Source: a virus (taxonomy: Duplodnaviria > Heunggongvirae > Uroviricota > Caudoviricetes). From it: a stretch of 7,503 bases of DNA. Shown here piece after piece: positions 1 to 3,000 of the stretch; positions within the stretch are counted from its first letter, which is position 1; every line of letters starts with the position of its first letter. The DNA lies in the IMG/VR virus record IMGVR_UViG_2671180814_000014; one strand, 5' to 3'. The position numbers are program-made.

Positions 1-3000
1 ACACCGTTGGCAAATCGGCATTCGTGGAGGCTGTCGGTCGGGCGAGCGATGATGCGGAAGGTTACTTGGATTTTTTCAAAGGAGAGATAGGGAAAACACA
101 TCTGGCTCAGGAGCTGTGGACGCAGATTGATAACGGTCAGCTTGCGCCTGACCTGGCTGAAATCAGGACGTCCATTACGGATGTCAGCAATGAAATCACG
201 CAGACTGTCAATAAGAAACTGAAAGACCAGAGTGCGGCAATCCAGCAGATACAGAAGGTTCAGGTTGATACAAATAATAATCTGAACAGCATGTGGGCTG
301 TGAAGCTGCAACAGATGAAGGACGGACGCCTTTATATTGCGGGTATCGGTGCCGGTATTGAGAATACGCCAGCAGGAATGCAGAGTCAGGTGCTGCTGGC
401 GGCAGACAGGATTGCGATGATTAATCCTGCGAATGGCAACACAAAGCCGATGTTTGTTGGTCAGGGCGATCAGATATTCATGAACGACGTGTTCCTGAAA
501 CGCCTGACGGCTCCCACCATTACCAGCGGCGGTAATCCTCCGGCATTTTCCCTGACACCGGACGGAAAACTGACCGCTAAAAATGCAGATATCAGTGGCA
601 GTGTGAATGCGAACGCCGGGACGCTCAACAATGTCACAATTAATGAGAACTGTCAGATTAAGGGGAAACTGTCAGCCAACCAGATTGAAGGCGATATAGT
701 CAAAACAGTGGGTAAGGCTTTTCCGCGGGACTCCCGGGCACCGGAGCGGTGGCCATCAGGGACCATTACCGTCAGGATTTATGACGATCAGCCTTTTGAC
801 AGGCAAATTGTTATTCCGGCGGTGGCATTCAGCGGCGCTAAACATGAGCGGGAGAATAACGATATTTATTCGTCATGCCGCCTGATAGTACGGAAAAACG
901 GTGCTGAAATTTATAACCGTACCGCGCTGGATAATACGCTGATTTACAGTGGTGTTATTGATATGCCAGCTGGTCGCGGCCACATGACGCTGGAGTTTTC
1001 GGTGTCAGCATGGCTGGTGAATAACTGGTATCCCACAGCAAGTATCAGCGATTTGCTGGTTGTGGTGATGAAGAAAGCCACCGCAGGCATCAGTATCAGC
1101 TGAATTTTATAACCCATATACGGGCGCCAGAAATGGCGCCTTTTTTATTGCAGAAAAGCGAGAGGTAATTATGCGTAAAGTTTGTGCAGCCATTTTGTCC
1201 GCAGCCATTTGCCTGGCCGTATCCGGTGCGCCTGCATGGGCGTCTGAACATCAGTCCACACTGAGCGCGGGGTATCTTCATGCCCGTACGAACGCTCCCG
1301 GCAGCGATAATCTGAACGGGATTAACGTGAAATACCGTTATGAGTTTACGGACGCGCTGGGGCTGATTACGTCCTTCAGTTATGCCAATGCTGAGGATGA
1401 GCAAAAAACGCACTACAGCGATACCCGCTGGCATGAAGATTCCGTGCGTAACCGCTGGTTCAGCGTGATGGCGGGGCCGTCTGTGCGCGTGAATGAATGG
1501 TTCAGCGCGTATGCGATGGTGGGTGTGGCTNNNNNNNNNNNNNNNNNNNNNNNNNNNNNNNNNNNNNNNNNNNNNNNNNNNNNNNNNNNNNNNNNNNNNN
1601 NNNNNGTGATGGCGGGGCCGTCTGTACGCGTGAATGAATGGTTCAGCGCGTATGCGATGGTGGGTGTGGCTTACAGCCGTGTGTCGACTTTCTCCGGGGA
1701 TTATCTCCGCGTAACTGACAACAAGGGGAAAACGCACGATGTGCTGACCGGAAGTGATGACGGTCGCCACAGCAACACGTCTCTGGCGTGGGGGGCTGGC
1801 GTGCAGTTTAACCCGACCGAATCCGTGACCATTGACCTTGCTTATGAAGGTTCCGGTAGTGGTGACTGGCGAACGGATGCATTTATTGTTGGTATCGGAT
1901 ACCGTATCTGACAACAGACGCCGATTTATCTTCTGTAAATATTGTTATGATACGCAGGTTCATCCACCTTATGGGGTGAACTGCGTTTGAGGAAACGTAA
2001 AGTTACACTGTCCTGAAGCCCGTGGCGTCACTGCTGCGGGCTTTTTTTATTGGTGGAAAAGTATGACAGTAAAAATTTCTGGCGTGCTTAAAGATGGCAC
2101 AGGAAAACCAGTACAGAACTGCACCATTGTGCTGAAGGCCAGACGAACCAGCAGCACGATGGTGGTGAACACGGTGGCCTCTGAAAATCCGGATGAAGCC
2201 GGACGTTACAGCATGGATGTTGAGCATGGTCAGTACAGCGTCACCCTGCTGGTTGAAGGTTTTCCGCCTTCACATGCCGGGACCATTACCGTCTATGAAG
2301 GTTCCAGACCAGGTACGCTGAATGATTTTCTCGGTGCCATGACGGAGGATGATGTCCGACCGGAGGCACTGCGCCGCTTTGAGCAGATGGTGGAAGAGGT
2401 GTCACGTAACGCCTCCGCGGTTGCACAGAATACGGCAGCCGCGAAAAAATCAGCCAGCGAGGCGGCAACTCATGCAACCGATGCTGCAGCCTCAGCACGN
2501 GCAGCCATTTGCCTGGCCGTATCCGGTGCGCCTGCATGGGCGTCTGAACATCAGTCCACGCTGAGCGCGGGGTATCTTCATGCCCGGACCAACGTTCCCG
2601 GCAGTGATGATCTGAACGGGATTAACGTGAAATACCGTTATGAGTTTACGGATACGCTGGGGCTGGTGACGTCATTCAGCTATGCAGGAGACAAGAATCG
2701 CCAGCTGACCCGTTACAGCGATACCCGCTGGCATGAAGATTCCGTGCGTAACCGCTGGTTCAGCGCGTATGCGATGGCGGGTGTGGCTTACAGCCGTGTG
2801 TCGACTTTTTCCGGGGATTATATCCGCGTAACTGACAATAAGGGGAAAACGCACGATGTGCTGACCGGAAGTGATGACGGTCGCCACAGCAACACGTCTC
2901 TGGCGCACTGACGGTTTCATCGTGGGTGTCGGTTATAAATTCTGATTAGCCAGGTAACACAGTGTTATGACAGCCCGCCGGTTCAGGCGGGCTTTTTTGT

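What the first reader, a model, noticed from the sequence alone, without database searches (positions are those of the whole stretch)
2063..2946. Chimeric stf'-lom' block joined at a single N with 7-bp microhomology, carrying different alleles from the flanking lom and stf
The order J-lom-stf-tfa is the canonical lambda arrangement, but here an extra block sits between lom and stf. It is the first ~145 codons of a diverged stf allele fused in frame, exactly at nt 2500, to the body of a diverged lom allele. The join falls in the heptamer gcagcca, which is present in both parent sequences (stf 3469-3475, lom 1201-1207). The intergenic sequence upstream of stf' (1912-2062) also differs from that upstream of the full stf (2947-3009). 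So sequence from two distinct lambdoid tail modules is interleaved. Either the assembly merged reads from two near-identical prophages (the 'n' at the junction points that way), or the host carries a real illegitimate-recombination scar.
Basis: partly seen in the sequence, partly recalled or inferred. Interest (0 to 1): 0.55.

Follow-up and report, generated by a model that had tools for sequence, protein, structure and literature searches.

The report
Scaffolding join between two prophages
The odd stf'-lom' block is the place where a draft-genome scaffolder set contigs from two different lambda-like prophages of Shigella sonnei end to end and marked the join with a single N, so it is an assembly artefact and not a recombination scar.

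Summary
The sequence facts hold. An in-frame ORF (2063-2911) joins 145 codons of a tail-fibre (stf) gene, across the N at 2500, to a lom gene body, and both halves are different alleles from their neighbours. It is not an inserted block, though. The window is a whole 7,503-bp scaffold of a Shigella sonnei draft (GCA_001261375.1, CXAM01000182.1) built from at least four contigs. Bases 1-2499 are prophage A (J-lom-stf 5' end). In sibling S. sonnei drafts that stf continues as a normal 918-aa gene. Bases 2501-7503 match prophage B of the complete S. sonnei 53G chromosome apart from a 42-bp deletion and an N gap. In 53G this lom follows its own J gene. The join occurs in none of 5,426 complete E. 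coli genomes. All seven Stf-N::Lom fusion ORFs I could inspect as DNA, from seven assemblies, have a single N exactly at the join, at five different positions. The other two N runs have duplicated flanks, and one contig end is a hybrid of two lom copies. The "7-bp microhomology" is only 6/7 against the true parent allele. Verdict: scaffolding artefact of a Velvet/SSPACE/GapFiller-type pipeline (pipeline identity inferred). It has no biological novelty. Its only consequence is chimeric proteins in nr.

The parts
1..1103 (+). 3' end of tail-tip gene J of prophage A (start of contig 1)
   Evidence: Pfam Phage_Tail_Tip/Ig_GpJ_C on the called product. It is 99.7-99.9% identical and colinear with sibling S. 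sonnei loci L011-L017, but only 93.5% identical to J of prophage B in 53G.
1171..1530 (+). lom_A, 5' part. The last 66 nt (1465-1530) are the end of contig 1 and duplicate 1606-1671.
   Evidence: The end carries a hybrid G..T haplotype found in none of the 22 other copies in the fetched loci, which are G..C or A..T.
1531..1605 (.). Spurious 75-N scaffold gap inside lom_A
   Evidence: The flanks overlap by 66 nt. In the gap-free sibling contigs L015-L017 the two flanks overlap and lom_A is an intact 199-aa gene.
1606..1911 (+). lom_A, 3' part (start of contig 2)
   Evidence: Colinear with sibling prophage A loci. Over 1606-2507 there are 902 aligned columns, no gaps and 2 mismatches, one of which is the N.
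1912..2062 (+). lom_A-stf_A intergenic region
   Evidence: Colinear with prophage A in the siblings and with E. coli 203740. Unrelated to the prophage B intergenic region.
2063..2499 (+). First 437 nt (145 codons) of stf_A. Contig 2 ends here.
   Evidence: In siblings L011 and L014-L017 the same sequence continues as a 918-aa stf followed by a tfa. The 21-nt difference from E. coli alleles is the genuine S. sonnei allele, because there is no gap against the siblings.
2500..2500 (.). Single-N placeholder at the join of contig 2 (prophage A) to contig 3 (prophage B)
   Evidence: The same single N sits at the Stf-N::Lom join in L007-L010, L020 and L021.
2501..2946 (+). lom_B pseudogene from its nt 31 (start of contig 3). 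It has an 83-bp deletion (about 2900-2905, real) and a 42-bp deletion at the 10-nt repeat 2756-2765 (probably a false gap closure).
   Evidence: Bases 2501-3918 match 53G (L004 6303-7762) with 0 mismatches and a single 42-nt gap. In 53G this lom is a 160-aa gene that follows its own J. The 42 bp are present in all sibling copies.
2947..3009 (+). lom_B-stf_B intergenic region
   Evidence: Identical to 53G.
3010..6207 (+). stf_B, interrupted by a spurious 59-N gap (3919-3977) with an exact 55-nt flank duplication
   Evidence: The gene is 1027 aa in 53G but the window ORF is 1067 aa.
6207..6723 (+). tfa_B with a 65-nt frameshifting deletion near 6330 (real)
   Evidence: 100% identical to 53G and to the contig-level drafts L005 and L006. 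The 65 nt are present in L007 and L008.
7473..7503 (+). Sequence that in 53G runs straight into IS1 transposase genes. The scaffold ends here.
   Evidence: The 31 nt match two places in L004, each immediately upstream of IS1 InsA/DDE genes. Recognising it as the IS1 inverted repeat rests on my own knowledge.

Best explanation
The stf'-N-lom' block is a scaffolding artefact. The source S. sonnei genome carries at least two lambda-like prophages with similar J-lom-stf-tfa tail modules. A short-read assembler broke both modules into contigs at the stretches they share. A paired-read scaffolder then linked the contig ending in the 5' part of stf_A to the contig that begins in lom_B and runs on through stf_B. 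The probable reason (inferred) is that mates of reads in stf_A fall in downstream stf sequence that was assembled only on the B contig. The implied distance was negative and no overlap existed, so the contigs were abutted with a one-base N placeholder. The two alternative arms of a repeat were thus written in series instead of in parallel. That gives an apparent order lom-stf'-lom'-stf and, by chance of frame, a chimeric ORF.

Shown: the contig structure, the identity of each side, the absence of the join elsewhere, and the recurrence of single-N joins at this site. Inferred: the exact software (Velvet + SSPACE + GapFiller) and the read-pair logic.

Within the block, the 42-bp deletion in lom_B is most likely a false gap closure on a 10-nt direct repeat. 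The 83-bp lom deletion and the 65-nt tfa deletion are genuine features of the S. sonnei prophage.
For: 1. The window is the entire record CXAM01000182.1 (7,503 bp) of the S. sonnei draft GCA_001261375.1.
2. It has three N runs. The 75-N and 59-N runs are flanked by 66-nt and 55-nt duplications, meaning unmerged overlapping contig ends. Gap-free relatives show the true sequence is continuous there.
3. Left of the N, bases 1-2499 are colinear at 99.7% identity or better with prophage A in eight sibling S. sonnei drafts. In five of them (L011, L014-L017) stf_A continues as a 918-aa gene followed by a tfa.
4. Right of the N, bases 2501-7503 equal the complete S. sonnei 53G chromosome (L004 6303-11233) with 0 mismatches, one 42-nt gap and the N run (identity of HE616528.1). 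In 53G and in the contig-level draft L005, lom_B follows its own J with no stf' upstream.
5. The join is in 0 of 5,426 complete E. coli genomes and 0 GTDB species representatives. The exact 282-aa product is on record for one contig only, which is this one.
6. A search of 5.8 billion proteins found other Stf-N::Lom fusions. All six others that I could fetch as DNA (S. sonnei L007-L010, E. coli L020 and L021) have a single N exactly at the fusion point. With the window that makes seven joins at five different stf/lom positions in seven assemblies. In the four S. sonnei siblings the lom_B contig always starts at the same base.
7. The end of contig 1 (1465-1530) has a G..T haplotype, a hybrid of the A (A..T) and B/C (G..C) lom copies. 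The other 22 copies examined are all one or the other. This is direct evidence of mixing between copies in this scaffold.
8. The true parent stf_A reads GCCGCCA, not GCAGCCA, after the breakpoint.
9. Page et al. 2016 describe 299 public S. sonnei assemblies made with Velvet + SSPACE + GapFiller and note that these greedy tools can make false joins (PMC5320598). GapFiller closes a gap on an overlap of 10 nt or more if the size is within 50 nt of the estimate (PMC3446322). That fits the 42-bp deletion on a 10-nt repeat and the unmerged 55-nt overlap. Sibling L012 has a contig boundary (single N) exactly at window-equivalent 2756.
Against: No raw reads could be examined, so absence of reads spanning the join is inferred, not shown. 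The join is in frame and has 6/7 similarity (7/7 to the stf_B allele), which a real microhomology-mediated event could also produce. I could not document that GCA_001261375.1 was made with the Page et al. pipeline. This is inferred from the accession series, the submitter-style protein accessions and the N patterns. The rule that SSPACE writes a single n for a negative gap is from my memory only, and the literature searches for it failed. The 42-bp deletion junction also exists in one complete E. coli genome, F2_81, in a decayed prophage, so that deletion could be real.
Confidence: 0.93

Rival explanations
1. This is a real illegitimate, microhomology-mediated recombination in this isolate between stf of prophage A and lom of prophage B. 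It would fuse the two prophages, or delete or duplicate what lies between them, and the N would be just a low-confidence base call.
For: GCAGCCA or GCCGCCA is shared near the breakpoint and the ORF stays in frame. Both parent prophages exist in S. sonnei. Small deletions between short repeats are real in this module: the 83-bp lom and 65-nt tfa deletions are in the complete 53G genome.
Against: The N lies exactly at the join, and every comparable fusion inspected has an N there too. A real junction would give unique junction k-mers, which the assembler or an iterative gap filler would be expected to read through. The join is absent from 53G, from the sibling drafts and from all complete E. coli genomes. 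Join positions vary among siblings of what I understand, from background knowledge, to be a highly clonal species. The two modules share long stretches of 88-97% identity, which should favour in-register homologous exchange over a 2-6 nt microhomology event. Other contig ends in this scaffold are demonstrably artefactual.
Confidence: 0.04
2. The scaffold mixes DNA from two strains (contamination or a mixed culture), one carrying prophage A and the other prophage B.
For: Two alleles of each gene occur in one short scaffold.
Against: Both prophages are found in single S. sonnei assemblies. For example, L013 and L018 carry A-type and B-type segments, and 53G carries B. No second strain is needed, and it would still be an artefact.
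Confidence: 0.01
3. This concerns the sub-feature only. The 42-bp deletion in lom' (2756-2765) is a real slipped-strand deletion private to this isolate and not a false gap closure.
For: The identical deletion junction occurs in the complete E. coli genome F2_81 inside a decayed prophage, where the lom remnant is 96% identical. lom_B is already a pseudogene, so there is no selection against it.
Against: It is absent from 53G and from every sibling copy. The repeat is exactly 10 nt, which is GapFiller's default minimum overlap, and 42 nt is within its 50-nt tolerance. A sibling assembly has a contig boundary at exactly this base. The missing segment lies in the same shared stretch where lom_A is broken by the 75-N gap.
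Confidence: 0.25

Closest known systems
False joins and unmerged overlaps produced by paired-read scaffolding plus greedy gap filling (SSPACE/GapFiller as used in the Sanger pipeline, Page et al. 2016, PMC5320598; GapFiller, PMC3446322)
   Same: There are N placeholders between contigs, duplicated flanks at gaps, closure on a 10-nt overlap, and placement of repeat-derived contigs in series. The source species is among the 299 S. sonnei assemblies described for that pipeline.
   Different: I could not verify that this particular assembly came from that pipeline. The single-n rule for negative gaps is from memory and was not found in the literature searched.
Lambda-type tail module J-lom-stf-tfa
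   Same: Each of the two abutted loci has the canonical order and domains: J C-terminal domains, Ail/Lom, prophage tail fibre N-terminal domain, and Caudo_TAP tail fibre assembly protein.
   Different: The apparent extra stf'-lom' unit is not part of either module. Prophage B is decayed, with lom lacking 83 bp, tfa lacking 65 nt, and IS1 downstream.
Collapsed or duplicated repeats at multi-copy lambdoid prophages in short-read assemblies of E. coli/Shigella
   Same: Complete E. coli genomes carry a median of 2-3 and up to 14 copies of this region. Many database Stf proteins are 'partial' fragments of about 170-185 aa ending just downstream of this breakpoint.
   Different: Here the broken pieces were re-joined into a contiguous-looking scaffold and annotated as a gene.

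Membership tests
Scaffold-join artefact | An ambiguous base or gap lies exactly at the non-colinear junction | tested here: met
   The N at 2500 is the only non-ACGT base between the two non-colinear parts.
Scaffold-join artefact | Each side is colinear with a separate, intact locus in closed or gap-free assemblies of the same species | tested here: met
   The left side matches prophage A in L015-L017. The right side matches 53G L004 6303-11233.
Scaffold-join artefact | The junction is not reproduced in independent assemblies | tested here: met
   0 of 5,426 complete E. coli genomes, 0 GTDB representatives, and the product is recorded on a single contig.
Scaffold-join artefact | Same type of join recurs with variable breakpoints in assemblies of related isolates | tested here: met
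   L007-L010, L020 and L021 each have a single N at the Stf-N::Lom join, at four positions that all differ from the window's.
Scaffold-join artefact | No reads span the junction | not testable with these tools
Microhomology-mediated illegitimate recombination scar | The junction sequence is fully determined and read through | tested here: not met
   There is an N at the junction.
Microhomology-mediated illegitimate recombination scar | Exact short homology shared by the true parental sequences at the breakpoint | tested here: inconclusive
   The match to parental stf_A is 6/7 with only 2 nt exact next to the N, and 7/7 only to the non-parental stf_B allele. Both stretches are Ala-codon rich.
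Microhomology-mediated illegitimate recombination scar | The scar is inherited by related isolates or present in a closed genome | tested here: not met
   It is absent from 53G and from all sibling loci fetched.
Lambda-type J-lom-stf-tfa tail module (applies to each parent locus) | Gene order and domain content | tested here: met
   Precomputed Pfam hits on called genes: Ig_GpJ_C, Ail_Lom, phage_tail_N, Caudo_TAP.

The most novel reading that the evidence does not exclude
The join is real. In this one S. sonnei isolate, prophage A and prophage B would have been fused by an illegitimate exchange between stf_A codon 145 and lom_B codon 11, creating an in-frame Stf-N::Lom chimera, with the N being a mere base-calling ambiguity.
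Probability: 0.03. Interest if true: 0.25.

Novelty: not a real feature. Interest (0 to 1): 0.04.

Why it matters
Biologically it does not matter, because nothing new is encoded here. There is a practical point for data quality. Single-N scaffold joins in multi-copy prophage tail regions are being annotated as genes. They have put chimeric "outer membrane proteins" into nr: CSN59748.1 from this window, CSU37200.1 (one accession of P0003), and the P0001, P0007 and P0068 sequences, which combine a tail-fibre N-terminal domain with an Ail/Lom barrel. Domain-architecture surveys or prophage recombination studies that use such drafts could mistake them for real fusions. A simple filter would remove them: an ORF spanning an isolated N whose two sides map to different loci.

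Tried and rejected
- Exact-pattern scans of GTDB species representatives for the N junction and for the 42-bp-deletion junction both found nothing. The source is not in that collection.
I got round this through the listing of cluster members and then P0135.
- I could not find a published statement that SSPACE writes a single n for negative gaps. The phrase search returned "single nucleotide" and species names. That rule stays as unverified background knowledge.
- P0043, an Stf-N::Lom fusion listed on a 4.8-Mb contig, is not on record for DNA look-up. A synthetic junction query found no match in complete RefSeq E. coli, so it is unresolved.
- I first suspected that the 21-nt indel in stf' and the 83-bp deletion in lom' were also artefacts, because their junctions are absent from complete E. 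coli genomes. Both are genuine S. sonnei alleles, present in the siblings and in 53G.
- I considered a fresh tandem duplication and rejected it. The two copies are different alleles (87.9% for stf, 94.4% for lom, unrelated intergenic regions).

Full report
**Observation.** The window has three N runs: 1531-1605 (75 N), 2500 (1 N) and 3919-3977 (59 N). ORF 2063-2911 reads in frame across the single N. Its first 437 nt align to the 5' end of the full stf at 3010 with 87.9% identity and a 21-nt indel. Its remainder aligns to lom from nt 31 at 94.4% identity over aligned bases. The two upstream intergenic regions are unrelated. The 75-N and 59-N gaps are flanked by 66-nt (one mismatch) and 55-nt (exact) duplications. 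lom' lacks 42 bp between two copies of TGGTTCAGCG. It also lacks 83 bp near its 3' end.

**What each side is.** A look-up of the tfa fragment led to the complete chromosome HE616528.1, which is S. sonnei 53G (PMC10673971). Window 2501-3918 equals 53G (L004 6303-7762) with no mismatch and one 42-nt gap, and 3978-7503 is 100% identical. In 53G this lom (160 aa, carrying the 83-bp deletion) follows its own J gene. After it come a 1027-aa stf, the truncated tfa and IS1. The right half of the "block" is therefore just the start of a contig covering prophage B. The 83-bp lom deletion and the 65-nt tfa deletion are real.

An exact-sequence look-up showed that the 282-aa fusion product (the codon cgN is Arg whatever the base) is CSN59748.1 of S. 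sonnei. It is recorded on one contig of 7,503 bp. That contig is CXAM01000182.1 of GCA_001261375.1 and is identical to the window. The reconstructed Lom of the left side is an S. sonnei protein found on 11 contigs of sibling drafts. In those drafts, including three gap-free contigs (L015-L017), window 1-1530 and 1606-2507 align colinearly at 99.7% identity or better and overlap by 66 nt. In five of them (L011, L014-L017) stf continues as a 918-aa gene followed by a tfa. The left half of the block is thus the 5' end of stf of prophage A. The 75-N gap is spurious, and the 21-nt indel is the genuine S. sonnei allele.

**The join.**
- No complete E. coli genome (0 of 5,426) has a match covering 80% or more of a 161-nt query centred on the join. 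No GTDB representative has it either.
- A search of 5.8 billion proteins with the fusion ORF found a handful of other Stf-N::Lom fusions, each rare and each with a different fusion point.
- All six others that I could fetch as DNA have a single N exactly at the fusion point. These are S. sonnei GCA_001252315.1, GCA_001261355.1, GCA_001259015.1 and GCA_001257235.1, and E. coli GCA_009894745.1 and GCA_009894845.1. In the four S. sonnei siblings the right-hand contig always begins at the same lom base, while the left contig ends at different stf positions, with 3 nt or less of shared sequence.
- Single Ns also mark obvious contig joins elsewhere in those scaffolds. One example is an apparent IS1 terminus (recognised from memory) abutted to a J fragment.
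- Other siblings show further permutations of the same pieces (L012, L013).
- A fixed contig start, a variable partner and an N at every join are what a scaffolder produces, not what an inherited scar looks like.

**Internal evidence of mixing.** Across 23 copies of the 66-nt lom stretch in all fetched loci, the two variable sites are either A..T (prophage A) or G..C (B/C). The only hybrid, G..T, is the end of the window's contig 1. Reads from different lom copies were therefore combined when that contig end was built or extended.

**The microhomology.** The true parent stf_A continues ...CAGCACG-T-GCCGCCAGC. The lom side therefore matches it at 6 of 7 positions, with only 2 nt exact next to the N. 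The 7/7 match is to the stf_B allele, which is not the parent. Both stretches encode Ala-Ala, so the resemblance is largely compositional.

**Mechanism (inferred).** Page et al. 2016 describe 299 public S. sonnei assemblies (mean 405 contigs) made with Velvet, SSPACE and GapFiller. They state that an N gap is created where read pairs join contigs and that these greedy tools can make false joins. GapFiller closes a gap when the two extensions overlap by 10 nt or more and the size is within 50 nt of the estimate.

This fits several features. The 42-bp deletion sits on an exactly 10-nt repeat, at a base that is a contig boundary in sibling L012. The 55-nt exact overlap was left unmerged, which would follow if the size estimate was too far off. 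The contig end is a hybrid. The likely reason for the A-to-B link is that mates of reads in stf_A fall in downstream stf sequence assembled only on the B contig. That implies a negative gap, and no overlap could be found. To my recollection SSPACE writes one n in that case, but I could not confirm this in the literature.

The 42-bp deletion junction also occurs in one complete E. coli genome, F2_81, in a decayed prophage. A real private deletion therefore keeps about 25% probability.

**Comparison and verdict.** Each parent locus is an ordinary lambda-type J-lom-stf-tfa module, and prophage B is decayed. The feature that was flagged is not biological. A real microhomology-mediated fusion is not strictly excluded without reads, but I put it at about 3-4%. 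The practical consequence is that such joins have produced chimeric tail-fibre/Ail-Lom "proteins" in nr. Interest is very low, and novelty is "not a real feature".

Noticed in passing
window 1465-1530 and 1606-1671 (flanking the 75-N run): A 66-nt duplication lies either side of the gap, with one mismatch. The left copy has a G..T haplotype that is a hybrid of the two lom types seen in 22 other copies.
   Followed up: yes
window 3864-3918 and 3978-4032 (flanking the 59-N run): An exact 55-nt duplication lies either side of the gap inside stf. It inflates the ORF to 1067 aa, against 1027 aa in 53G.
   Followed up: yes
window 2756-2765; L003 4949-5175: The 42-bp lom deletion between TGGTTCAGCG repeats is private to this scaffold among the S. 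sonnei loci. The same junction exists in the complete E. coli genome F2_81, in a lom remnant of a decayed prophage.
   Followed up: partly
window about 6330: A 65-nt frameshifting deletion in tfa is shared with 53G and the drafts L005 and L006. It is absent from L007 and L008, so it is a real polymorphism among the S. sonnei assemblies examined.
   Followed up: partly
window 6485-6683 (+): There is an Rfam hit to IS009 (RF02111) at 218 bits, E 3e-54, full length, lying inside the tfa coding region.
   Followed up: no
window 6724-7440: An AT-rich stretch (31% GC against 54% for the rest) lies between tfa and IS1. No gene is called there in 53G. Its content is unknown.
   Followed up: no
window 7473-7503: The scaffold ends in sequence that in 53G runs straight into IS1 transposase genes, and the same 31 nt occur twice in L004. 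This is a typical contig break at an IS.
   Followed up: partly
L006 about 7640-7700 (GCA_013886555.1, 3 samples): In an N-free contig, a Mu-like prophage region (Mom, Com, baseplate genes) abuts the interior of stf_B at window-equivalent 3760. Whether this is a real rearrangement or an assembler chimera is not resolved.
   Followed up: no
L012 10301, L013 6593-6603 and 9993: Sibling S. sonnei scaffolds show other permutations of the same tail-module pieces around 1-N or 11-N joins. These include an inverted lom/stf copy and a J fragment following a 34-aa stf stub.
   Followed up: partly
proteins P0034 and P0043: P0034 is a Lom-N::Stf fusion (the reverse order). P0043 is an Stf-N::Lom fusion listed on a 4.8-Mb contig. 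Neither could be checked at DNA level: P0043 is not on record and has no match in complete RefSeq E. coli.
   Followed up: partly
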